This document shows, piece by piece, positions 3,297-47,716 of a stretch of DNA of 64,000 nucleotides; position 1 is the stretch's first letter; each line of letters starts with the position of its first letter. Below the pieces are notes generated by a model. It had not been told where the DNA came from. It saw only the letters and a program-made list of their open reading frames with translations, and did not search any database. Both the position numbers and the translations under genes were made by a program. This stretch comes from a virus (Duplodnaviria > Caudoviricetes): the IMG/VR virus record IMGVR_UViG_3300031867_000015, positions 32,001 to 96,000 of that record, one strand, 5' to 3'.

Positions 3297-3656
3297 TTAA
3301 TCCTCTCCTATCAGTTTTAAGGCTTCGTCAGCGTATCGCCATTGATAATCAGTATCACAGCCACCGTCATCAGGACAACTACATTTGCCTATTTGAGACT
3401 CCCACTTACAACATTCACAAATTACACCACCGTTGTAAACCTCGGTAGCAGTAGCATTTAAATCTTCAATTGCCGCTTTCAGAAGTCGCTTGTACTCTGC
3501 TATCTGCTCTCCATTTTCCTTTATCAGTCTGTCGAACTCGCTTATCAGATATATGTTTTCTGCCAATAATACCATTAGATAAAATATAGCCATGATAATA
3601 AGTAGTATGATAAAACAACCGCCAAGCGTAAGAAACCCCAATAAGATTTTAACCAT
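3297..3656 (-). CDS. membrane-anchored Cys-rich hypothetical protein
   Basis: N-terminal TM; C-terminal KRLLK...W.Y.DEALKLIG module shared with 33907..34278. Confidence 0.7.
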   Translation of the reverse strand: MVKILLGFLTLGGCFIILLIIMAIFYLMVLLAENIYLISEFDRLIKENGEQIAEYKRLLKAAIEDLNATATEVYNGGVICECCKWESQIGKCSCPDDGGCDTDYQWRYADEALKLIGED

Positions 3657-3657
3657 C

Positions 3658-4566
3658 TCAATCCTCCCAATTTGTAGTCTTTACAATCTCAAACATTTCA
3701 TCAATGGTCATTCCGTTAATCAGTATGCTCTTTACCTTTGCAATAACACTGTTCTTTGAGAATGTCTGATTAACAAGGTCAATATAAAAGGTAAATGTAC
3801 CATCATCACCCATGTAGAATCTTTCCCATTCTTCTTCACTCATTAATCGCTTAACATCAAGCTGACGAATGGCAAGATTGTCAAATGAAAGATTCTTAAA
3901 CCATCCTTCTTTTACAATTGTAGGGAGCATAAATCCAAGATAAGTTGTGTTCTTCGTAAGTTCTTTAAGATTGTTTGAACGATATTCAAGACCTCTGCCT
4001 GTTGTTTTATATCCAAGTATCAGAATCTTTAAATCGTGATTGGCAAGTCTACCAAGGTCGTTCTCCGTAAGGATTCCATTGATAGTGTGAATAACTGCAT
4101 TAGGAATAGTCTTTACAAGATTAATAAAAGCATCTGTAGGTTCTCTCAATGATATACCCAATCCCCATATTAACTTCTTATCAAGAAGTTCCTTGATAAA
4201 ATAGTAGAATCTTTCAAAATGAATCTGGTTTACTGTCAGATTTGCAATAACTTTCTTCTCCTTTAACTTTGAAAGAAAAGCTATAAGGTATGGATGTGAA
4301 AGGTCATTGCCGTTGAGAGCCATTTCTGTATACGGATGAAGCGAATTAATAAATGTATCATTCATTATATCTCCATGCTTACCTAACGTAGTGCAACCCT
4401 CATAACAGAACTGACAACCGCCATCACATCTATCCGTAATCTTACAATCTACGTTTTCTGCAAAGACAGGTCTGAACTCATCATCCTCAGTACGTCTAAC
4501 AGTTGTACCATCATCCCAACGTATCACACTTACATTTCCATTCTTGTATCTTGCTAAAAGTTTCAT
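3658..4566 (-). CDS. radical SAM enzyme
   Basis: CDGGCQFC (CxxxCxxC); GGAGG RBS before ATG 4566. Confidence 0.9.
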   Translation of the reverse strand: MKLLARYKNGNVSVIRWDDGTTVRRTEDDEFRPVFAENVDCKITDRCDGGCQFCYEGCTTLGKHGDIMNDTFINSLHPYTEMALNGNDLSHPYLIAFLSKLKEKKVIANLTVNQIHFERFYYFIKELLDKKLIWGLGISLREPTDAFINLVKTIPNAVIHTINGILTENDLGRLANHDLKILILGYKTTGRGLEYRSNNLKELTKNTTYLGFMLPTIVKEGWFKNLSFDNLAIRQLDVKRLMSEEEWERFYMGDDGTFTFYIDLVNQTFSKNSVIAKVKSILINGMTIDEMFEIVKTTNWED

Positions 4567-4638
4567 AGTATTTCCTCCTAAATTATTTCTTCTCCTAAAT
4601 GGAGTATGTATTAGGAGCATACGCTCCTATATTAATTA

Positions 4639-4950
4639 TTAATCGTGTCCATAGTAACCAAACGCAACAACTGTTTCACCATTAGGTGTAGTATATCTCT
4701 CTGAAAATGTTTCGTATTCAATATAGTCCCAATCATGAAATTCATCATATGTTAAATACTGTGTATATCTTCCATCATTTTCTCTTTCCTTTTCGATTTT
4801 TTCATTTGATTCAACAATTTGCTTTGCATATCTATCATAATATACCTCACCATTTCTCCACTTACTGTACTCATCATCAGAACACATTGTAAGCGAATGA
4901 ACTGAACTGCTGTTTGTTTCAAAAATACCTCTGCGAATTACTTCTTTCAT
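4639..4950 (-). CDS. FETNSSS-motif protein (short paralog)
   Basis: N-terminus VIRRGIFETNSSSVHS. Confidence 0.85.
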   Translation of the reverse strand: MKEVIRRGIFETNSSSVHSLTMCSDDEYSKWRNGEVYYDRYAKQIVESNEKIEKERENDGRYTQYLTYDEFHDWDYIEYETFSERYTTPNGETVVAFGYYGHD

Positions 4951-4964
4951 AATTAATTCTCCTT

Positions 4965-5495
4965 TTAGTTTCCTTTTATAAAATAATCAAAGTTTTCTGA
5001 ATCGTGATACGGATTAAGTTCTTTACCATCATTACCCCAGTAATATTCATCACCTACAAAACAGGTGTCAAGATAATCATTGCTACCACAATTATCATTT
5101 CCTGTATATACAACGCTGTCATTGTCAAACAGATATCTGAGAAGTAAATCCTCGTTGTCAAGTACAGCATTTACAAACTCAATTGTATCTTCTGAGTGGT
5201 CAATTCCCCACCAACGAGAAGCCTTTTCCTCTGGCTGAAATGTATAATCAATTTCATACTTGTCAAGAATTGATTTCAGCTTATCGAGAAGATAATCGGA
5301 AAGGCTCTGGCACATAATAGCAGTATAAAGATAATCTGGTGTATCGACTGTACTATTCTCCCATCCGTATTCGCCAAGATAAAAAGAGATTTTCTTTCCC
5401 TTAACATCACCAACTGGCTTCTTTGAAATGCATATCGAATGTACACTTGAACTATTTGTCTCAAACATTCCGTTTCTGATTACTGTTTTGCTCAT
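4965..5495 (-). CDS. FETNSSS-motif protein (long paralog)
   Basis: N-terminus VIRNGMFETNSSSVHS. Confidence 0.85.
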   Translation of the reverse strand: MSKTVIRNGMFETNSSSVHSICISKKPVGDVKGKKISFYLGEYGWENSTVDTPDYLYTAIMCQSLSDYLLDKLKSILDKYEIDYTFQPEEKASRWWGIDHSEDTIEFVNAVLDNEDLLLRYLFDNDSVVYTGNDNCGSNDYLDTCFVGDEYYWGNDGKELNPYHDSENFDYFIKGN

Positions 5496-5812
5496 TAAAA
5501 CTCACCCCTTTCCGCAGGATTATCAACCTTTGGTGTTGATTCAGACCTTAAATTATATATTTCCTCTTTGAGTTTCGCCACTTCTTCTTTGAGTTTTCTG
5601 TTCTCACAGTCTCTTTCGTACTTGTCCCGATTAGCTTTATCAATATCCTGTTTCTTTGTTGCTACTTCTTCGACAAGGTTACGGTATTCGTGAAGTGTAA
5701 CCGTAACTGTAAGTTCTTGTGGTGCTGTAAAGTTATCAAGATTATTATTGCTATAACAATCCATTTTCTTTTCAAGCACAACATTGTTTGTAATTGTATT
5801 TTCCATAATCAT
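5495..5812 (-). CDS. coiled-coil hypothetical protein
   Basis: GGAGGA RBS; heptad-like C-terminal half. Confidence 0.7.
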   Translation of the reverse strand: MIMENTITNNVVLEKKMDCYSNNNLDNFTAPQELTVTVTLHEYRNLVEEVATKKQDIDKANRDKYERDCENRKLKEEVAKLKEEIYNLRSESTPKVDNPAERGEF

Positions 5813-6326
5813 TCTTCCTCCATTTCTGCGTTTAACCAATCACAACATTTCTGTATGATTTCTTTTGAACTGAAATAAATAATATTTCTATCACATACAC
5901 TTTCCCAGTCCCAATCATACTTTCCATATTCCGAATCAAAATATATATATAGTAGGCACGATTATCGTAATCACCTGAGAAAACAGGCTTATAATCTCTG
6001 TCATAGCACCACTTGAAAGCTAAAAGTTTATCATTAAATTCTTTTATTTTCTGTGCCTGTTCTGCGTATTCTTTTGTGAGATAGTTGGAGTAACGGTCTG
6101 TACGAATGTCATCATATTCGCCAAATAGTTTAGCATCATCGACCTTGTTAGAAACGTCCACATAAAACGCACTTTCTCCACTGTTAAGACAATTCCAGTA
6201 TTCAGCGAGAACGCTTTCTGTGTTTTTCTTTTCTTCATTTTCCTTTTCTTTCTTTATCTCTGCAAGCAGTTTATTAGTTTCTGCTATCTGTGATTCAAGT
6301 AATTCTATCTTTTCGTCAATGGTCAT
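5809..6326 (-). pseudogene. hypothetical gene frameshifted at an (AT)n tract
   Basis: removing one AT at 5941-5951 gives ...YFDSEYGKYDWDW...IYFSSKEIIQKCCDWLNAEMEEE, ending in ATGA overlap with the next gene. Confidence 0.6.
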
Positions 6327-6338
6327 AGTATTTCCTCC

Positions 6339-7238
6339 TTAAATAAATTTCTTTGCAATGCTCATGCCAATTGAATTTGCAACCTTACCAAAGTTTTCAA
6401 TTTTTGATACAATCTCAGGTTCTTCTTTTAAACAATCCTCGAATATTCTCTTGCAAAGATTCTTAGCCACAATCGGCATTTCTTTTGCTCCCCAGTTCTC
6501 AGGAAGAATCCCCTCGTCAACAAGTTTGTGAAGAATCTTCGTTACTCTTGCTTCTGTTACAATGCTTTCACAAAGAGCCTTATTTTCTTCCTGTGCTTTA
6601 AGTTGTTCTGGTGTCACCACTTTAGCATGATGTTCATGTGTTTCTTGAAATTTCTCACTGACAATCTTAATATAAAACGGTGTTCTGCCATTAGGGTCAT
6701 TCAGTTTTGTCTGATTCTTAATAACAATTCCCTCGCCCATTTCACCGTCCATTTCAGTCTTACCTACAAAACTCAGGCAATGTTCCCAAGACTGGAACTC
6801 ACCTTTGTAAAATACTGGAACAAAATTAAGACCAAGTTCCTTTGCCTTTTCTTCTACGATATCCTGTGGAAGATATTTCTCTGCATCTGTATTATAGATA
6901 TCATAGGCATAGAACTGATTGTACTTTTCGTCAGGATATTTTACGGTATGTGGAACAAGCCACTCTCCAAAGAATACCAGATTATTACCAAGAACTTCTC
7001 TTACCTTGTTCTTATCAAGTGTCTGCGACCATTCGTACATTCCTCTGAGGTTATTACCAATAGAAAGAATCTGTTTTCTGCTCTGTGCAACAACACAGTC
7101 ATTCTCACTATCATATCGAATAGCGGAGTTTGCCCCATCTATTTTTTCCTGTATGACAATATAATCTCCCTTTTCAAATCCGTTTACATTCACTTCCTTA
7201 ATTCTTTCAATGTCCATAAACTTCTTATGATTCACCAT
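6339..7238 (-). CDS. RNA ligase, Rnl2 family
   Basis: motif I EKIDGAN, FFGEW, FYAYDI, EGIVIK, IKIVSEKFQE. Confidence 0.88.
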   Translation of the reverse strand: MVNHKKFMDIERIKEVNVNGFEKGDYIVIQEKIDGANSAIRYDSENDCVVAQSRKQILSIGNNLRGMYEWSQTLDKNKVREVLGNNLVFFGEWLVPHTVKYPDEKYNQFYAYDIYNTDAEKYLPQDIVEEKAKELGLNFVPVFYKGEFQSWEHCLSFVGKTEMDGEMGEGIVIKNQTKLNDPNGRTPFYIKIVSEKFQETHEHHAKVVTPEQLKAQEENKALCESIVTEARVTKILHKLVDEGILPENWGAKEMPIVAKNLCKRIFEDCLKEEPEIVSKIENFGKVANSIGMSIAKKFI

Positions 7239-7559: not shown

Positions 7560-7596
7560 TTACAATTCACTCCTTGTTTTGATATAAAAAATAAAG

Positions 7597-7686
7597 TGGG
7601 GCAAGAGGGAATCGAACCCTCGGTGTTTACCACATGGGTATTGGTTTTTAAGACCAATGCGTTTCATCCAACTTCGCCATTGCCCC
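7597..7686 (-). tRNA. tRNA-Leu(TAA)
   Basis: GGGGCAA/TTGCCCC acceptor, TTGGT-CTTAAAA-ACCAA anticodon arm, long variable arm, GGTTCGATTCC; no encoded CCA. Confidence 0.9.
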
Positions 7687-7860
7687 ATTAATGAGACTTC
7701 TTTTTACAAGTCAAGTCCCCAATATCTTGCGTATACGATATGGATATTGCTCTTGGAATCCATTAACACCACCGCTTAAAGTAGGGAACGATTTACACAC
7801 CAAAAATGTTGCAACGTTGGTGTCATCCCATCTTTCTTAAAGGAAAAGCGATATTCCTAT

Positions 7861-7943
7861 TGGTGTCCTCTATGAGAGTCGAACTCATACGCTTTCGCAA
7901 CTGATTTTGAATCAGCCATGTCTACCAATTCCATCAAGAGGAC
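7861..7943 (-). tRNA. tRNA-Leu(CAA)
   Basis: GTCCTCT/AGAGGAC acceptor, GCTGA-TTCAAAA-TCAGT, GTTCGAC T-loop, ACCA end. Confidence 0.92.
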
Positions 7944-8021
7944 TTATGTATGCCCTACCAAGTAGGGCTATATGGAGGAACACGTTATGTCAGAACGTGT
8001 GAAGATTGCTTGCCCTGACAA

Positions 8022-8696
8022 TCAGGGCATCTTAGGAGGTGGCTTACTATGACAAGTCAAATTATATTTGTTTTTAAGTTTATCTTCTATAAATTCAATA
8101 GCAACTTTTTCTCCTTGATTTTTCACTAATCTATTAATATAATTAGTTCCTATATCTGGAATTAAAGAAGCCCATTGTCTACCACTTAATGTTACCGTAG
8201 CTGTAATATAATTAGTAGTAGATTTAAACCTTGTATTTGTTTCAACATCAATCCACCTACAATTATCTGGTGTATAATTTTTATTATCTTCGACCCTATC
8301 AATGGTCAAATTACTTTTATAGTTGTTGTGCAAAGCCCATATTTCAAACAATCTCGGATTATCTATCCATTCTTGACATACTCTTATACCTTTAGCACCA
8401 TAAAATTTATAGTCTTTGCTATCAGGAATATAGCATCTTCTTAGTATACCATGAAAAATATGAGCCAATCTTTTATCATCTATTTGATTTGATTTTATTT
8501 TAATATCTCCGTATACTAACCAGTGAGGACATTTGTAAACTATATTATGAGATATCTTTGAATATCTAAATGTCTTACATTCTCCACATTCACATTTTGC
8601 AATATACATTTTGTGTCCATCATTTGACTTTTCATCTGACACACCAACGATGGTGTATATACCATATTTTTCTCCGATGTGATTAATATTTAGCAT
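8022..8696 (-). CDS. HNH-type homing endonuclease
   Basis: CECG; RRCY...YGAKGIRVCQEW...LTIDRVEDNKNYTPDNCRW. Confidence 0.8.
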   Translation of the reverse strand: MLNINHIGEKYGIYTIVGVSDEKSNDGHKMYIAKCECGECKTFRYSKISHNIVYKCPHWLVYGDIKIKSNQIDDKRLAHIFHGILRRCYIPDSKDYKFYGAKGIRVCQEWIDNPRLFEIWALHNNYKSNLTIDRVEDNKNYTPDNCRWIDVETNTRFKSTTNYITATVTLSGRQWASLIPDIGTNYINRLVKNQGEKVAIEFIEDKLKNKYNLTCHSKPPPKMP

Positions 8697-8756
8697 CTCC
8701 TTTATTATAATGTTTTGATTGTGAGTATCAACTCTGCCCGATTCTAATACCATTAA

Positions 8757-8796
8757 TGACAGTAACAAAAATCGAACTCATATGAACTACACTGTC
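8757..8796 (-). pseudogene. internally deleted tRNA remnant
   Basis: GACAGTG/TACTGTC acceptor, TAGTTCA D-arm start fused directly to GAGTTCGATT. Confidence 0.45.
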
Positions 8797-8866
8797 ATAT
8801 GTATTATGCGGTAGATTAGCCCCTACCGCAAGGCAGAAAGGAGGTGTTACAAATGCATCTGGTTAT

Positions 8867-8936
8867 TGGTGTTAGATTGGAGGGGACTACACAACTGTCC
8901 CTAACAGCTTGACTGCTATTGTGTACCCAATCTAAT
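8867..8936 (-). ncRNA. candidate 70-nt pseudoknotted RNA ending in ACCA
   Basis: TTAGATTGG/CCAATCTAA, TAGCAG/CTGTTA, GGGAC/GTCCC and crossing TACACAA/TTGTGTA. Confidence 0.5.
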
Positions 8937-9010
8937 TGGTGGGAACAGAGAGAATCGAACTCTCAACTAATCCTTAAAAGGGACTTGTTTTACCATTAAA
9001 CTATATTCCC
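8937..9010 (-). tRNA. tRNA-Lys(TTT)
   Basis: GGGAATA/TGTTCCC, AGTCC-CTTTTAA-GGATT, GTTCGATT, ACCA. Confidence 0.92.
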
Positions 9011-9290
9011 AGTAATATGCTGTTCAAAACCACCAACCAAACAGCACTTGCGAACTCCATCTATCACATATCCGCAGTTCCTACAGTTCACTATCCTATC
9101 CGCATTTCAGCGAATCACATCATTGACCACTCCACTGACAAGTATAGTCAATTACCATTCCGAATTTCAATAGCCTTTGGCAAGAAGGTCTATCTACACC
9201 GTTACCTTTTTTGAAAGTAAATCTTTCACATCTTCTTATTTATTGGAGAGATGAAGTAGACACGGTTCTCTTAACACATAATTGTCCCAT

Positions 9291-9366
9291 TGGTTGTGGA
9301 TGTGAGATTTGAACTCACGTATGCAGGAGTCAAAGTCCTGTGCCTTCACCGCTTGGCGAATCCACA
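9291..9366 (-). tRNA. tRNA-Gln(TTG)
   Basis: TGTGGAT/ATCCACA, CAGGA-CTTTGAC-TCCTG, GTTCAAAT, ACCA. Confidence 0.92.
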
Positions 9367-9466: not shown

Positions 9467-9676
9467 GGGGTAAATTATATATTTTTTTCATTTAACTAAT
9501 TCTCTTATCTGATTCTGAACATTCTTTAATTCATTTTGAATTTTTACATCTGAGATAGAATTGATAATAGAATCAAGTTTGACAATAATATCATTTACAT
9601 TCTGAGAATTTGCGTACTTTACCTTGTTATTCAACACATTCTTAGTAAAGATACAATTTCCATTTTCTTTTCCTCC

Positions 9677-10021
9677 TTAATTTTTAATAAGACCAAGCTG
9701 AATCATAATACAAGCATCAACTCTGTTCATAGTCTCATCGTCTACCTTGCCTATATACTGACGAAGTATCGTTTTGTTGACTGTTTGTATTTGTTCTGCT
9801 AAAGCTGTGGATTCTTTGAGAAGTCCTCCACTTTTAATTGTTGTATGTATTGGTAATGTTTTTTTATTCTTTGAAGTCAATGGTATTACCTGTACCGTTG
9901 GTGCGTGTGCATTACCAATATCATTCTGAATAATTAATACTGGTCTGAGTCCACCTTGTACGGAACTGTGTTCGTCAAGGATGGGTAGCCTTGCCATATA
10001 AATACTACCTCTTGTAAGCAT
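9677..10021 (-). CDS. PemK/MazF family endoribonuclease toxin
   Basis: RGSIYMA...VQGGLRPVLIIQNDIGNAHAPTVQVIPLTS...EQIQTVNK. Confidence 0.9.
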   Translation of the reverse strand: MLTRGSIYMARLPILDEHSSVQGGLRPVLIIQNDIGNAHAPTVQVIPLTSKNKKTLPIHTTIKSGGLLKESTALAEQIQTVNKTILRQYIGKVDDETMNRVDACIMIQLGLIKN

Positions 10022-10210: not shown

Positions 10211-10330
10211 GAACCATTTGTCTTGTAATAAGACTTCTTTCTTGCTTCAACGTCCTCGCAACCTACTAACTCCACAAGCGTAAATTCCGATAATTCCTAC
10301 CGTACTAATTGTTTATTAGACTGCTAATAA
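10209..10330 (-). ncRNA. TnpB omega-RNA scaffold / IS200-IS605 right end
   Basis: GTACGGTAGGAATTATCGGAATTTACGCTTGTGGAG...GAAGCAAGAA...GTCTT/AAGAC hairpin...GGTTCAA; typical of TnpB 3' ends. Confidence 0.7.
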
Positions 10331-11428
10331 TCCTTGTTTAAGAATATTCTTAGCCGCATTAATATCCCTATCATGTTTTGCACCGCACTCAGGACAAGTC
10401 CATTCTCTTACAGATAAATCCTTAGTCTCAGGATTTATACAACCACAACAACTACACGTTTGACTACTTGGACAAAACCTATCTATCTTTGAAATAGTCC
10501 TACCATACCAATCAGCTTTATACTGCAACATCCTTACAAACTCAGACCATGAACAATCTGATATGGACTTTGCAAGGCAATGATTTTTAACCATGCCTGA
10601 TACGTTCAAATCCTCTAAACAGATTACATCATATCTACGAATTAATTCAGTAGAGAGTTTTTGTAAGAAGTCTGTTCGCTGATTAGTTATCTTGTCCCAT
10701 GCTCTTGCTAATCTGATTCTTGCTTTGTCCCAATTGTTACTACCCTTTGACTTTCGGGATAGCTGTCTTTGTAACATAACAAGTTTCTTTTCTGATTTGG
10801 CAAGATACTTGGGACTTGATATTTTATCTCCATTTGATGTGATAGCAAAATCTTTAATACCGAGGTCAATGCCTACATTGCAATCAGTCCTTGTAAACGG
10901 TTCGTAGTTCTCTTGCTCTACTAAAACAGAACAATAATATTTACCACTTGGAGTTTGACTTATTGTAGCTGATTTGATTTTACCGTCAAACTTTCTGATT
11001 CCTCTTACTTTAACCCATTTGAGTTTAGGAAGTTTTATTTTGCGATTATCAAAATTAACTTCTATTGTAGGTCTGCCAATATAATTACAATTTGTTTTAT
11101 AAGACTTGCGATTATTTTTCTTAGACTTAAACTTCGGGAATCCTTTGTGTTCCCTAAAGAACTTTTGATATGCCGAATCGAGATTAATAACAGCATTATC
11201 TAAAGCAAATTTATCTACTTCTTTTAACCATTCGTACTCAGATTTGAGTGTGCGATTTTTGTAATTATTGACATCAATTTTAGACAAAGTTATTTCTTCT
11301 GTTTTGTACTTATTTATTTTATATGCTAAACATTGATTATACACAAATCGTACACATCCAAAAGTTTTCTGTATAAGTAACTCTTGTTCTTTATCTGGAT
11401 AAAGTCTGAATTTATAACCTTTTAACAT
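10316..11428 (-). CDS. tnpB: RNA-guided endonuclease TnpB (IS200/IS605)
   Basis: N-terminal [19 protein letters not shown]; Ruv[19 protein letters not shown]; Zn finger CSCC/CPEC; no tnpA nearby. Confidence 0.95.
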
Positions 11429-12374
11429 ACTTTTCCTTTTCTACCTCAAAATATTTCTTTATAACATTAAGACCGAGATTCATATTCATATCTATATTCT
11501 TTTTAATACTTTCAAAATCCCCACAATAACGACTTGTTGTAACAAGATTGCTGTGGTTTAAATCCCAGTTCAAGAACTGCATAGCCGCTGTGTGAGCCTG
11601 TCCCATATCGCCATACATTTCTTGGAAAAGCTGTTCAACTTTATTGGAATATAATTTTCTCAATGAATGGGTAGCGTATCTTACTTTACCATCTGTGCAG
11701 TTTTCTCTACCTTTAAGCTGTATACCCAAATCATCTACTAACTTTTTTGACATAAGATTATAGATTCTTGAATAACTTAATGGGTCAAGAATTTTATTTC
11801 CGTTCTCATCAAGTTCATACTGGAAGTCACCATTAATTTTTAAAGGTTTACCAGTCTTAGGGTCTTTAAGTTTGCGATAGTTTTTATATCCACCGTCAGA
11901 AATAATGAGCCAATCAAGCGGAGAAAAATCACCACTCCATGTTACCATAAGTACACACATCTTTATAGCATCATTGATATACATAGTACGTGGCTTTCCT
12001 GTTTTCAATTCTGAGAATAAACAGCTTTCACGGAACTTGTTATGCTCATTTAAAAAATCTATCCTCTTGATTATTCTTGCATCGGAGCATCTTACTCCCC
12101 AGTTTGCCTGTGTTACAAAGAATAATGCATCTCTGAATCCTTTATAACCACCTTGTTTGAAACAGGTTTCAAGTACCTGATTAAACACTTCTTCTGGCAA
12201 AGAATCCATGCCTATCTTTTCAGCCCTACGTTTTTCAAGTTCTTTGATTCTCTGATAATCTCCGTCCTGTATGTTTACATCGGGAACAAGGTCATCGAAA
12301 TCAATATCATCATTACCTAATCGGTCTGATATGTCAATTACCTGACATTCGTTTTCTTTTAATTTATGTATCAT
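11412..12374 (-). CDS. tyrosine recombinase/integrase
   Basis: GVRCSD (R), ELKTGK (K), HSLR, LNHS...TTSRY (H, Y). Confidence 0.88.
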
Positions 12375-12776: not shown

Positions 12777-12812
12777 CCCTCAGTCAAATGACTGAGGGAT
12801 TTATTTTTTTTT
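12777..12812. terminator. intrinsic terminator between convergent genes
   Basis: CCCTCAGTCA-AA-TGACTGAGGG plus T-tract. Confidence 0.8.
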
Positions 12813-13359
12813 AATACGAATCTTCCATATCACACAGTATATCACTCTGAGTTATAGGCTTATCCCAAATAGTTTCATTGATAGATATTACGAACTTTGC
12901 CGTTTCTGGATAGCTGTCTCTTGAACATTCGATGAAATGATATACGTCCTCAATGTTATATGCTTCATAGTTCATGGGCTTTATTTCCGTCCCCACTTCT
13001 CCCTTTGGAATACAGTACGCATTAAATGTCAATGTCACAACTGGCATCTGCTTTTCGTGTGAACTGTTATAAGCGTATCGTGTAAGGATATTACTTGCAT
13101 CTACGGCAGTAACCATTCCATCATAATTTGTGTCTGCAAGCCAACGCTGTGTTGATGTGAACGAGCGTTCATTCCCAACTGAAATACTCGCATATTCAGT
13201 AAGTACCATTGAAGCATCAATACCATCCACTCTACCATCAAGATTAACGTCATATCGGAGTGTCCCCATATCATGCTGTCTTGCGTGTGTGGTCATTGGT
13301 GTTGCCATACCTATTGCAAGCATGGCTGATAAAATCATTGTTGTTTTTTTCATAATCAT
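12811..13359 (-). CDS. secreted dockerin-domain protein
   Basis: signal peptide; two repeats DVNLDGRVDGIDASMVL and DTNYDGMVTAVDASNIL. Confidence 0.85.
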   Translation of the reverse strand: MIMKKTTMILSAMLAIGMATPMTTHARQHDMGTLRYDVNLDGRVDGIDASMVLTEYASISVGNERSFTSTQRWLADTNYDGMVTAVDASNILTRYAYNSSHEKQMPVVTLTFNAYCIPKGEVGTEIKPMNYEAYNIEDVYHFIECSRDSYPETAKFVISINETIWDKPITQSDILCDMEDSY

Positions 13360-13381: not shown

Positions 13382-15175
13382 TTAAGCGTTAATGCTTAGT
13401 AAAGCCTGTGTGTTGTTTATTCCACCAAGATAATACTTTCTATTACCTATTATTTTGTCATACTCTCTTTCGCCTGAGAAACTATCAACAACTTTCTTTT
13501 CTTCCTCATTCATCTGCTTGTATGTCTTTGTACCAAAATCAAAGGGTAGCCATCCACGATTCTTTCCTACATAGATATTATATTTCTGAATTAGTTCTGG
13601 ACAGTTGAAAGTTATATGAACACTACCCTTTAAGTACAGATTGATGGTAAAGTATTTAAGAGGAATGTTCTTTGTAACTCCCTTGTCTACGTACTCCTTC
13701 ACTGTACTGTAAATATCTACGTCAGCGGTCATGTTTCCATCAAAGTAATTGAGAATACGCTCTATGTCGGAAAGTCTTTCATTTAACTTGTATAAATCCA
13801 AGTGACCAAAGATTGAATCATAAAGACCATAGAACGGCATAATAACCTTCTTGCCAATCTTGTGACCAATGTTAGTTTTCCATGCGTTATAAAGGTATTT
13901 AGAGTTATCTGAACAAGCATAATCAACAGTCATTTTATCAAACATCTTTTCAATCTCATTCTCAATGCCTGTTTTTACCTTGCTTTTCATTTCCACAAGT
14001 AGATTCTTGATATTAAATTCGGAGAAGTCATACTCTGAAAATGTCTCTACTTTCGCCCTGTACTGTTCCTGTAACTTAGTTGTGAGGTTTCCAGTGAACT
14101 TTGGATTTGAAAACAGTGCCCTCCAATACTTGTAACGGACTGCCTTGACATATTTATTAATGGTCATCTTATCTTTTCCATAGCCATCTGTAAGCTGTAT
14201 AATGGGTGTGGGGTATCTATCTTCTGTATCAAAAGAACTTGAAAGATAAGGTTTCATTCGTTCAAAAGAATTAATAAGTTCAATTCCTGATTTGATTTCC
14301 ACATTGTATTTATTAACAACTGACTTTAAATAATCTGTAACATCAAGTGCAGTTATTTCTTCTGCCGTAGGTTCTTCGTAGTGTTCTTCCTTTTTGAGTT
14401 TATCGAATATAGAATCATCATTATCATTAACACTCATAGGAATGTTTACATAAACCATAGCAACTTCTACATCTGTCTGACGTTCTGCGTTATTAAATTC
14501 TCCGCTATAATATTCTATATTTGCATTATACTCATTCAGTATCTTGATAAGTTCTTTGCGTGTCTCTGTGTAGGGATTTCTGATAGTCTCCGCATTAAGT
14601 AAGCACACTATCTGTCCTCCATACTTCTGAATTTCCAATGCCTTTAACAAATGCTTATCTCCATTACTGAATGGTGGATTCATAATGATAACATTGTACT
14701 GCTTGTATGCTGTAAAGGTAAGAAAATCATCATGAACAAGATGCACGTTTTTTCCCTTTACTTCTTTACGTTCTGTGTCAATCGCTCTCAGTCTTGAATT
14801 GTCTGGTTCTGGAACAGGAACATACTGTCTAAGTTCTTGATTATAATACTTATAATTTTCACTCCATGAATCAAAGTCATTGTACTGCTTTGTTATCTTC
14901 TTCTTTTCGTCAAGCAGTCTATTAGAATTTTCCTCAGAAAAAGTATACAGAAATATCTGTCTCAGATTGTTGTCAATCTCTATGCAGTCTATATCAAGCT
15001 TTCCATCAGTTTTGCGATTAAGGTATCTTACTATATCTCCCTTGCCTACTGATGGTTCAAGAACCGTATTAACATAATTCCAATTCACCTTTGAATACAT
15101 CATCTGAATAAGATTCTCAGGTGTAGGATAGAACTCTGATGTATTTTTATCCTCTACATAATTAACTATCTGCAT
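13382..15175 (-). CDS. DNA amino-methyltransferase with DUF4942-like C-terminus
   Basis: FYPTP, VLEPSVGKG (motif I), IIMNPPF (motif IV), C-terminal YLKGSVHITF. Confidence 0.85.
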   Translation of the reverse strand: MQIVNYVEDKNTSEFYPTPENLIQMMYSKVNWNYVNTVLEPSVGKGDIVRYLNRKTDGKLDIDCIEIDNNLRQIFLYTFSEENSNRLLDEKKKITKQYNDFDSWSENYKYYNQELRQYVPVPEPDNSRLRAIDTERKEVKGKNVHLVHDDFLTFTAYKQYNVIIMNPPFSNGDKHLLKALEIQKYGGQIVCLLNAETIRNPYTETRKELIKILNEYNANIEYYSGEFNNAERQTDVEVAMVYVNIPMSVNDNDDSIFDKLKKEEHYEEPTAEEITALDVTDYLKSVVNKYNVEIKSGIELINSFERMKPYLSSSFDTEDRYPTPIIQLTDGYGKDKMTINKYVKAVRYKYWRALFSNPKFTGNLTTKLQEQYRAKVETFSEYDFSEFNIKNLLVEMKSKVKTGIENEIEKMFDKMTVDYACSDNSKYLYNAWKTNIGHKIGKKVIMPFYGLYDSIFGHLDLYKLNERLSDIERILNYFDGNMTADVDIYSTVKEYVDKGVTKNIPLKYFTINLYLKGSVHITFNCPELIQKYNIYVGKNRGWLPFDFGTKTYKQMNEEEKKVVDSFSGEREYDKIIGNRKYYLGGINNTQALLSINA

Positions 15176-47397: not shown

Positions 47398-47474
47398 GGG
47401 TGTATCGTCTAATAGGTAAGGACACAACCCTTTCAAGGTTGCAATGGCGAGTTCAAATCTCCCTACGCTCACCA
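47398..47474 (+). tRNA. tRNA-Glu(TTC)
   Basis: GGGTGTA/TACGCTC, CAACC-CTTTCAA-GGTTG, GTTCAAAT, ACCA. Confidence 0.85.
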
Positions 47475-47642
47475 GAATAGAGGGTAATCTTTTAGGAGAT
47501 TACGTGAGATGAAAACCTCTCACCGCTACGCCAATAGCAGTAGGTGTTCAAGAGCAATCTTGTAAAGCCATTGGTACAGGCGCATTAGTTGTTTGCTGAT
47601 ATCTTATAATGTAACCCGTAGTAATAGAAGAAATCAGTATGC

Positions 47643-47716
47643 GGCAGATTGGTGAAATGGCATCATATAAGGTTCATACCCTTTTGTTCTACGTTCGATT
47701 CGTAGGTCTGCAACCA
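47643..47716 (+). tRNA. tRNA-CAT (Met/fMet/Ile2 ambiguous)
   Basis: GCAGAT/GTCTGC with G1-A72 mismatch, AAGG-TTCATAC-CCTT, CTACG-TTCGATT-CGTAG, ACCA. Confidence 0.8.

What the first reader, a model, noticed from the sequence alone, without database searches (positions are those of the whole stretch)
3658..5495. Radical SAM enzyme with two tandem partners sharing an invariant N-terminal FETNSSSVHS motif
Seen: the two genes directly upstream of the rSAM start VIRRGIFETNSSSVHS and VIRNGMFETNSSSVHS, then diverge almost completely (103 vs 176 aa). The three Ser codons differ in class (AGC AGT TCA vs AGT TCA AGT), which points to selection on the peptide rather than a recent DNA duplication. The rSAM has only the CxxxCxxC cluster and no Cys-rich SPASM domain. 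Established: rSAM enzymes often modify co-encoded proteins (glycyl radical, formylglycine, RiPP crosslinks). Inference: a phage protein-modification system with the TNSSS motif as substrate or cofactor site. I know of no assigned function.
Basis: partly seen in the sequence, partly recalled or inferred. Interest (0 to 1): 0.78.

Follow-up and report, generated by a model that had tools for sequence, protein, structure and literature searches.

The report
Phage radical-SAM enzyme with tagged clients
Two small acidic phage proteins that begin with the same invariant serine-rich 19-residue tag sit directly upstream of a very divergent radical-SAM enzyme; this enzyme-plus-tag pairing recurs in thousands of phages, including cultured ones, and I found no published function for it.

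Summary
The genes at 4965-5495(-) (176 aa) and 4639-4950(-) (103 aa) share only an N-terminal tag, M-x-x-[IV]-R-x-G-x-FETNSSSVHS. It is kept by selection on the peptide: 9 of the 15 identical residues use different codons. The next gene (3658-4566(-), 302 aa) is a radical-SAM enzyme with no SPASM cysteines.

The linkage is real:
- 33 of 35 loci found with the enzyme carry 1-5 tagged genes.
- 82 of 86 evaluable loci found with the tag carry the enzyme on the same strand, with a median gap of 8 bp.
- Complete genomes have one enzyme and up to 5 tagged genes, some more than 100 kb from the enzyme; a 135-kb fragment has 7.
- The tag heads at least 27 unrelated protein bodies and about 7,400 clusters at 50% identity.

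The enzyme's nearest folds are peptide-modifying radical-SAM maturases (SkfB, SuiB, PqqE, anSME).

Best reading (about 0.5): a dedicated maturase modifies the exposed tag of many client proteins. The clients are probably counter-defence proteins: they are acidic, fast-evolving, and lie beside RNA-repair, tRNA and methylase genes.

This scan has flagged the same module in several other genomes. I found no published description. The module is present in Microcystis phage Ma-LMM01 (gp128/gp130) and in Lak megaphages.

The parts
4965..5495 (-). A-type tagged client, 176 aa, acidic. Tag = residues 1-20. The body has invariant D99-H100, T131-G-N-D-N135 and a C-terminal K-G-N.
   Evidence: 47-sequence alignment; more than 1,500 homologues. 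AF2 pLDDT 87.6 with residues 1-14 below 50. No fold match: Foldseek E>0.3, VIA-wide Z<=2.2. phrog_28997, unknown function.
5436..5495 (-). Coding segment of the N-terminal tag of the A-type gene (residues 1-20).
4639..4950 (-). B-type tagged client, 103 aa, acidic. Tag = residues 1-19. The body has the family pattern C..EY.KW.NG ... FG.YG.D at the C-terminus and is not homologous to the A-type body.
   Evidence: hhalign of A-type versus B-type bodies gives probability 0.3%. Orthologues in Lak-B1 and L002.
4894..4950 (-). Coding segment of the N-terminal tag of the B-type gene (residues 1-19).
3658..4566 (-). Divergent radical-SAM enzyme, 302 aa. It has an N-terminal three-stranded sheet (invariant Y7, N9-G-N11, G20-T21, R24), a partial TIM barrel and a C-terminal hairpin with no cysteines.
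   Evidence: alignment; AF2 pLDDT 85.9; SkfB Z 15.4, SuiB 14.5, PqqE 14.1, anSME 12.9. phrog_16999. Homologues pass PF04055.
4393..4428 (-). Cluster-binding motif C47-x3-C51-x2-C54, plus C58.
   Evidence: C47, C51 and C54 are invariant in 35 close homologues and in distant lineages. A sub-lineage has Cx12Cx2C.
4303..4314 (-). Invariant N85-G-N-D88 motif, the likely counterpart of the GGE SAM-binding motif (inference). It is the intein insertion point in relatives.
   Evidence: Inteins interrupt homologues exactly here.
6339..7238 (-). Context: RNA ligase (PF09414), 1.8 kb upstream on the same strand.
   Evidence: An RNA ligase lies within 5 kb of the enzyme in 3 of 4 genomes that have one.
7596..9366 (-). 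Context: tRNA cluster (Leu-UAA, Leu-CAA, Lys-UUU, Gln-UUG).

Best explanation
This is a phage maturase-client system. The 302-aa radical-SAM enzyme binds the exposed N-terminal tag (consensus M-[KR]-x-[IV]-R-x-x-[VT]-F-E-T-N-S-S-S-x-H-[SA]) that heads each client protein. It reductively cleaves SAM, and the 5'-deoxyadenosyl radical abstracts a hydrogen from one residue of E-T-N-S-S-S-x-H, which installs the same post-translational change on every client. One enzyme serves 1-7 clients per genome or record. The clients are small, acidic, fast-diverging proteins, here an A-type of 176 aa and a B-type of 103 aa. They most likely act early in infection as counter-defence or host-takeover factors, because the module sits in islands of RNA-repair, tRNA and DNA-methylase genes. 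Shown: the anatomy, the linkage, the fold class, the distribution. Inferred: physical binding, the modification itself, the residue, the chemistry (candidates: Ser C-beta oxidation as in anSME, C-alpha epimerisation, or a crosslink) and the biological role.
For: 1) Linkage. 33/35 enzyme-seeded loci have 1-5 tagged genes, 32 of them directly upstream on the same strand. 82/86 evaluable tag-seeded loci have the enzyme on the same strand, median gap 8 bp. One of the 4 exceptions has a different radical-SAM gene adjacent. 2) One enzyme, many clients. A complete 250-kb genome has 1 enzyme and 5 tagged genes, 4 of them 47-184 kb away. Another record has 7 tagged genes. 'Orphan' tagged loci L107 and L137 have the enzyme elsewhere in the genome. 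3) The tag is a portable module. Among 263 distinct proteins R, E, N, S, S, S and H are 100% conserved and F 98%. The tag starts 8-9 residues after Met and sits on 27 BLAST-unrelated bodies. A-type and B-type bodies are not homologous by hhalign. The tag profile finds 7,413 clusters at 50% identity, and the best match lies at the N-terminus in nearly all of the top 150. 4) The tag does not change with enzyme lineage (Cx3Cx2C versus Cx12Cx2C; enzyme identity down to about 28%). 5) In the AF2 model of the A-type protein the body is confident (pLDDT 87.6) but tag residues 1-14 are below 50, so intramolecular packing does not explain the tag's conservation. 6) The enzyme's nearest folds are peptide- or protein-modifying radical-SAM enzymes: SkfB Z 15.4, SuiB 14.5, PqqE 14.1, ChlB 13.2, EpeE 13.1, anSME 12.9. 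PFL activase scores 7.8. 7) Selection acts on the peptide, not the DNA.
Against: The tag is more invariant than typical recognition sequences, which suggests it has a chemical role of its own, such as a cofactor or metal site. The enzyme has no auxiliary cluster, unlike most crosslinking or dehydrogenating maturases it resembles. The A-type body has its own invariant polar residues (D99-H100, T-G-N-D-N), so it could be an enzyme whose active site includes the tag. The clients are folded proteins of 100-260 aa, not short RiPP precursors. The counter-defence role rests only on neighbourhood and composition.
Confidence: 0.5

Rival explanations
1. Adaptor model. The tag is a docking and co-catalytic peptide that plugs interchangeable specificity subunits (the variable bodies) into the radical-SAM enzyme. 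The real substrate is something else, for example tRNA or another RNA, or a host protein.
For: The tag is invariant beyond what recognition needs, lies at a fixed distance from the N-terminus, and heads many alternative bodies. Neighbours repeatedly include RNA ligases, a polynucleotide kinase, Thg1-like enzymes, a ProQ-C-like protein and tRNA genes. One tagged pair sits beside a different radical-SAM protein.
Against: Tagged proteins are strongly acidic (89% have pI<5), which is a poor fit for RNA binding. Many tagged genes lie far from the enzyme and their number varies from 1 to 7, which is unlike fixed subunits. No RNA-binding domain was found in any tagged protein.
Confidence: 0.2
2. Independent-enzyme model. 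The tagged proteins are small enzymes or binding proteins in which E-T-N-S-S-S-x-H is a catalytic or metal/phosphate-binding loop. The radical-SAM enzyme is linked only through a shared small-molecule or nucleic-acid pathway, for example RNA end healing.
For: The tag's invariant residues are polar and of catalytic type (R, E, N, S, S, S, H). The A-type body adds invariant D-H and G-N-D-N. In these phages the neighbouring polynucleotide kinase lacks a phosphatase domain.
Against: The same loop heads bodies with no detectable homology, including 100-aa proteins. The tag is disordered in the model. No known hydrolase or phosphoesterase fold was found. There are no Pfam, NCBIfam or PDB hits.
Confidence: 0.12
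3. Radical-activation model. The enzyme works like a glycyl-radical activase and installs a protein-based radical on the tag, which then does chemistry.
For: It is a small radical-SAM enzyme with no auxiliary cluster acting on folded proteins. The small client proteins recall the spare-part protein GrcA.
Against: The tag has no invariant glycine (position -2 is Gly in only 56% of sequences) and no RVxG-like motif. PFL activase is a weaker fold match (Z 7.8) than the maturases. The bodies show no glycyl-radical-enzyme fold.
Confidence: 0.05
4. Signal model. The tag is a targeting or processing signal (capsid targeting, proteolytic or autoproteolytic cleavage at N-S or S-S), and the enzyme linkage is incidental synteny.
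For: The arrangement of a conserved N-terminal sequence on variable bodies resembles the capsid-targeting sequences of T4 internal proteins (from memory, not tested). Asn-Ser and Ser-Ser are known self-cleavage sites.
Against: The linkage holds across cyanophages, Lak megaphages and gut phages with enzyme identity down to about 28%, and at genome level even when the genes are dispersed. That is hard to explain as incidental. The tagged genes lie in early/replication-type regions, not structural modules.
Confidence: 0.05

Closest known systems
Anaerobic sulfatase-maturating enzyme (anSME/AtsB) with its sulfatase clients
   Same: One radical-SAM enzyme serves many client proteins scattered in a genome. 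All clients carry one short, highly conserved Ser-containing motif near the N-terminus, on folded proteins rather than short peptides. anSME is a good fold match (Z 12.9).
   Different: The tag has no C/S-x-P/A-x-R motif. The enzyme has no SPASM domain or auxiliary clusters. The clients are not alkaline-phosphatase-fold sulfatases (no fold match at all). The system is phage-only.
RiPP radical-SAM maturases of the SPASM/twitch group (SkfB, SuiB, PqqE, CteB, ChlB, EpeE) with their precursor peptides
   Same: They are the best fold matches (Z 13-15.4). The substrate genes lie in tandem directly beside the enzyme gene. A conserved N-terminal recognition segment is followed by a variable remainder.
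   Different: There are no auxiliary-cluster cysteines and no canonical RRE (the enzyme's N-terminus has three strands and no helices). The invariant part is the putative modified site itself, and the variable part is a folded domain of 80-240 aa. No protease or exporter gene recurred among the neighbour families I annotated.
Glycyl-radical-enzyme activases (PflA, NrdG) with PflB/NrdD and the spare-part protein GrcA
   Same: They are small radical-SAM enzymes with no auxiliary cluster that act on a specific loop of a protein client, including small clients.
   Different: The tag has no glycine radical motif. The fold match is weaker (Z 7.8). The clients are unrelated in fold to glycyl-radical enzymes.

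Membership tests
Radical SAM superfamily (PF04055) | Cx3Cx2C motif binding the [4Fe-4S] cluster | tested here: met
   C47, C51 and C54 are invariant in 35 close and 7 distant homologues. A sub-lineage has Cx12Cx2C.
Radical SAM superfamily (PF04055) | Partial (beta/alpha)6 TIM-barrel fold | tested here: met
   AF2 pLDDT 85.9. All of the top 16 VIA-wide hits are radical-SAM enzymes, with Z up to 15.4 over 262 residues. Foldseek E 1e-5 to CteB.
Radical SAM superfamily (PF04055) | Score above the Pfam gathering threshold | tested here: inconclusive
   The window protein has no Pfam hit at E<=0.1. Homologues L042 (39.4 bits) and Ma-LMM01 gp128 (31.5 bits) pass the 29.5-bit cut-off.
SPASM/twitch radical-SAM subfamily | C-terminal cysteine motif binding one or two auxiliary [4Fe-4S] clusters | tested here: not met
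   There are no cysteines after C58 and none conserved in the family's C-terminal third. Only the hairpin-plus-helix shape of that region is retained.
anSME-sulfatase system | Client motif C/S-x-P/A-x-R and a sulfatase (alkaline-phosphatase) fold | tested here: not met
   The tag logo has no P/A-x-R. The A-type model matches no known fold.
Glycyl-radical enzyme / activase pairs | Invariant glycine in an RVxG-type loop of the client | tested here: not met
   The tag has no invariant Gly, and the A-type body's invariant residues include no such loop.
RiPP precursor-maturase pairs | Short precursor with leader and core; RRE or equivalent leader-binding element; processing and export genes | tested here: inconclusive
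   The clients are 100-260 aa with a confidently folded body. The enzyme's N-terminus is a three-stranded sheet without the RRE helices. No protease or exporter was recognised among the neighbour families I annotated.

The most novel reading that the evidence does not exclude
Phages use a dedicated radical-SAM enzyme to build a new, enzyme-installed chemical group (a cofactor-like or warhead-like residue) from the invariant E-T-N-S-S-S-x-H tag at the N-terminus of a large, fast-evolving repertoire of acidic counter-defence proteins. This system would be functionally tied to tRNA/RNA repair islands. It would be a new post-translational modification and a new class of anti-defence effectors, and it is present in Lak megaphages, gut phages and cyanophages.
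Probability: 0.3. Interest if true: 0.9.

Novelty: new variant of a known kind. Interest (0 to 1): 0.78.

Why it matters
The tag heads about 7,400 protein clusters at 50% identity, and the enzyme family has more than 5,000 clusters at 90% identity. Nearly all are viral, and none has a Pfam family or a name. That makes this one of the commoner unexplained gene modules in tailed phages of the gut, the rumen and freshwater blooms. If the enzyme modifies the tag, this is a new radical-SAM protein modification with a ready-made, invariant 19-residue substrate that is easy to test with peptides. If the clients are counter-defence proteins, it would open a large new family of phage effectors and a link to RNA-repair islands. 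Cultured phages carry it (Microcystis Ma-LMM01 and the MaMV phages), so experiments are possible now.

Tried and rejected
Complex prediction (enzyme alignment A2 + A-type alignment A1 + 4Fe-4S + SAM) was requested (not completed).

Sequence searches gave no lead:
- Pfam, NCBIfam and PDB sequence searches of all three proteins found nothing useful. The only NCBIfam hit was TIGR04317 at 14.8 bits against a 380-bit cut-off.
- The A-type model has no significant fold match in PDB (Foldseek E>0.3; VIA-wide Z<=2.2). In BFVD the only hit is one uncharacterised phage protein.
- The ESM Atlas gave only unnamed viral clusters.
- A search for longer, fused forms of the tag found none. The only two-tag proteins seen are tag-body-tag-body fusions or merged gene calls.

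Resemblances from memory did not hold. I considered the N-terminal 'strand then acidic/polar loop' motifs of PIN (D-T-N), HAD (DxDxT), Toprim (E...DxD) and metallophosphoesterases (DxH...GNHE). None is supported, because the confident A-type model matches none of those folds; that result is inconclusive rather than an exclusion. Pyruvoyl-type Ser-Ser self-cleavage was considered, but it would not need a radical-SAM enzyme.

Literature searches for the motif, for Ma-LMM01 gp128-130 and for radical SAM together with phage RNA repair found no description. The Ma-LMM01 transcriptome paper (PMC5780444) does not name gp128-130 in its main text.

The scan of 185,579 prokaryote genomes found only 9 loci, all on MAG contigs, so no cellular version was found that could be used for inference.

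Full report
THE OBSERVATION

On the minus strand the window carries a tight run of genes:
- a 114-aa coiled-coil gene (5495-5839), whose stop overlaps the next start;
- a 176-aa gene (4965-5495);
- a 103-aa gene (4639-4950);
- a radical-SAM gene (3658-4566);
- a 119-aa membrane/Cys-rich gene (3297-3656).

The 176- and 103-aa proteins begin MSKTVIRNGMFETNSSSVHS and MKEVIRRGIFETNSSSVHS. BLASTP aligns only these first 21 residues (15 identical, E 3e-8). Of the 15 identical residues, 9 are written with different codons. This includes all three serines and the arginine (AGA versus CGC), and nucleotide identity is only 39/66. The peptide is therefore under selection; this is not a recent DNA duplication. 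In all six frames of the 115-kb phage contig the motif occurs only at these two places.

The enzyme's true start is the ATG at 4566, where AGGAGG lies 8 nt upstream and where all homologues start, giving 302 aa. Its only cysteines are C41, C47, C51, C54 and C58.

WHAT THE PARTS ARE

The enzyme has no Pfam, NCBIfam or PDB sequence hit of its own. It is nevertheless a radical-SAM enzyme, on four grounds:
- The Cx3Cx2C motif is invariant.
- Two homologues pass the PF04055 threshold.
- The AF2 model (pLDDT 85.9) is a partial TIM barrel.
- The 16 best matches among 48,161 PDB representatives are all radical-SAM enzymes.

The leading matches are the peptide- and protein-modifying group: SkfB Z 15.4, SuiB 14.5, PqqE 14.1, BlsE 13.7, ChlB 13.2, EpeE 13.1 and anSME 12.9. 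PFL activase scores 7.8.

The enzyme lacks the auxiliary-cluster cysteines of that group. It has an N-terminal three-stranded sheet with invariant Y7, N9-G-N11, G20-T21 and R24, which is kept even in lineages only about 28% identical. This sheet is a candidate docking surface for the tag (inference).

The 176-aa A-type protein belongs to a family of more than 1,500 proteins with no Pfam domain. Its AF2 model is confident (pLDDT 87.6) except for residues 1-14 of the tag. It matches no solved fold.

The 103-aa B-type protein has orthologues in distant phages. Its body is unrelated to the A-type body (hhalign probability 0.3%).

IS THE LINKAGE REAL?

- Starting from the enzyme: 33 of 35 IMG/VR loci have 1-5 tagged genes, 32 of them directly upstream on the same strand. 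The two loci without tags are the most distant homologues.
- Starting from the tag (a DNA pattern that says nothing about the enzyme): 113 loci carry a tagged ORF. Of these, 82 also carry the enzyme, always on the same strand, with a median gap of 8 bp. Another 27 are cut too close to the tag to judge. Only 4 have room but no family enzyme, and one of those has a different radical-SAM gene adjacent.
- At genome level, two 'orphan' tagged loci have the enzyme elsewhere in the genome.
- A complete 250-kb genome has one enzyme and five tagged genes, four of them 47-184 kb away. A 135-kb fragment has seven tagged genes.
- The module occurs in Prevotella Lak megaphages, with four tagged genes. It also occurs in cultured Microcystis phages: in Ma-LMM01, gp130 is the tagged A-type protein and gp128 is the enzyme.
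- Only 9 loci were found in 185,579 prokaryote genomes, all on MAG contigs.

THE TAG

Among 263 distinct tagged proteins the logo is M-[KR]-x-[IV]-R-x-x-[VT]-F-E-T-N-S-S-S-x-H-[SA]-[LI]. R, E, N, S, S, S and H are 100% conserved and F 98%. The tag starts 8-9 residues after the initiator Met.

The bodies fall into 27 BLAST-unrelated clusters: 125 A-type, 81 B-type and many small ones. A 36-column tag profile finds 7,413 clusters among 1.84 billion representatives, and the best match lies at the N-terminus in nearly all of the top 150. No fusions to known domains were found. The tag does not vary with enzyme lineage.

Tagged proteins are strongly acidic (89% with pI<5, against 27% of neighbouring ORFs) and rich in aromatic residues.

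HOW IT MOST LIKELY WORKS

Five features fit a dedicated maturase acting on the tag, as anSME acts on sulfatases or RiPP maturases act on precursors (confidence about 0.5):
- one conserved enzyme serves several dispersed, fast-diverging clients;
- the clients share a portable, exposed N-terminal tag;
- the bodies are unrelated to each other;
- the tag is disordered in the monomer model;
- the enzyme is closest in fold to peptide-modifying maturases.

The residue and the chemistry are not known. With no auxiliary cluster, candidates include Ser C-beta oxidation, epimerisation or a crosslink.

The main rival (about 0.2) is that the tag docks interchangeable adaptor bodies onto the enzyme, which then acts on another substrate. 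The extreme invariance of the tag and the RNA-repair neighbourhood favour this rival. The acidity of the tagged proteins and their dispersed, variable copy number argue against it. Weaker rivals are listed separately.

CONTEXT

Here the module lies 1.8 kb from an RNA ligase. Beyond that are tRNA-Leu(UAA), tRNA-Leu(CAA), tRNA-Lys(UUU) and tRNA-Gln(UUG).

Across 150 module loci, recurrent neighbours are:
- a polynucleotide kinase fused to an HNH domain (24 loci);
- two kinds of RNA ligase (13 and 12 loci);
- Thg1-like enzymes (7 loci);
- cysteine desulfurase (6 loci).

In all, 37 loci have an RNA-repair gene within 4 kb. In 3 of 4 genomes that have a PF09414 ligase, it lies within 5 kb of the enzyme, where the chance expectation is 4-9% each. 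Dispersed tagged genes sit beside DNA methylases and a primase.

This places the system among counter-defence and early functions. That conclusion rests on guilt by association, without a formal background model.

COMPARISON WITH KNOWN SYSTEMS AND NOVELTY

It works most like anSME with its sulfatases, or like RiPP maturases with their precursors. It fails the defining tests of each: no SPASM cysteines, no C/S-x-P-x-R motif, no glycine radical motif and no short precursor.

I found no published description. Earlier notes of this scan describe the same module in other genomes and reached similar conclusions.

- the dispersed-client pattern in complete genomes;
- the lack of homology between A-type and B-type bodies;
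- the acidity of the clients;
- the statistics of RNA-repair linkage;
- the inteins in the enzyme;
- the Cx12Cx2C lineage.

Noticed in passing
L071:7189-9330, L114:3165-4799, L111:2133-2600: Homologues of the radical-SAM enzyme are interrupted by inteins with LAGLIDADG homing endonucleases. In L071 and L114 the intein is inserted between the invariant Ala and the N-G-N-D motif (window residues 83-88). Inteins favour catalytic motifs of important genes, so this marks the motif and the enzyme as functionally important.
   Followed up: partly
L049, L050, L079, L126, L128, L142, L151 (enzyme genes): One enzyme sub-lineage has a 9-residue insertion in the cluster loop (Cx12Cx2C instead of Cx3Cx2C) and lacks the fourth cysteine. 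In several of these loci the enzyme lies upstream of its tagged genes. The tag itself is unchanged.
   Followed up: partly
window 7596-9366 and 47398-47716: The phage carries tRNA genes for Leu(UAA), Leu(CAA), Lys(UUU), Gln(UUG), Glu(UUC) and Met. Lys/Gln/Glu with U34 are classic anticodon-nuclease targets (from memory). The first four lie just beyond the RNA ligase (6339-7238).
   Followed up: no
window 9677-10021 (-): A phage-encoded PemK/MazF-type endoribonuclease toxin (PF02452, 90.8 bits). A 49-aa ORF just downstream (9488-9637) might be its partner.
   Followed up: no
window 10316-11428 (-): An IS605-type TnpB/OrfB (OrfB_IS605 + Cas12f1-like TNB + HTH domains) lies inside the phage genome. 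It overlaps the end of a 320-aa ORF (11412-12374) that has no Pfam hit.
   Followed up: no
window 12811-13359 (-) and 13382-15175 (-): A 182-aa protein with a dockerin type I domain, and a 597-aa methyltransferase-like protein (Dam/MTS + DUF4942). The dockerin hints at a cellulosome-bearing Clostridia host.
   Followed up: no
L164 (Microcystis phage Ma-LMM01, NC_008562: 129804-132637): In this cultured cyanophage the tagged gene gp130 and the enzyme gp128 are separated by gp129, a ProQ-C-terminal-like protein. They are preceded by gp131, annotated 'histidyl tRNA synthetase' (phrog_4806, no Pfam hit). This gives a tractable experimental system and another RNA-related neighbour.
   Followed up: partly
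L082:4918-8045: Two tagged genes sit directly after a different, non-family radical-SAM protein (PF04055 at 26.4 bits, below the cut-off). They are followed by a Thg1-like enzyme and a dual-specificity phosphatase. This may be a case of partner replacement.
   Followed up: partly
P0244, P0280 (representative library): Two proteins carry two tags each (tag-body-tag-body). They are either true fusions of adjacent clients or merged gene calls. The second tag is then internal.
   Followed up: no
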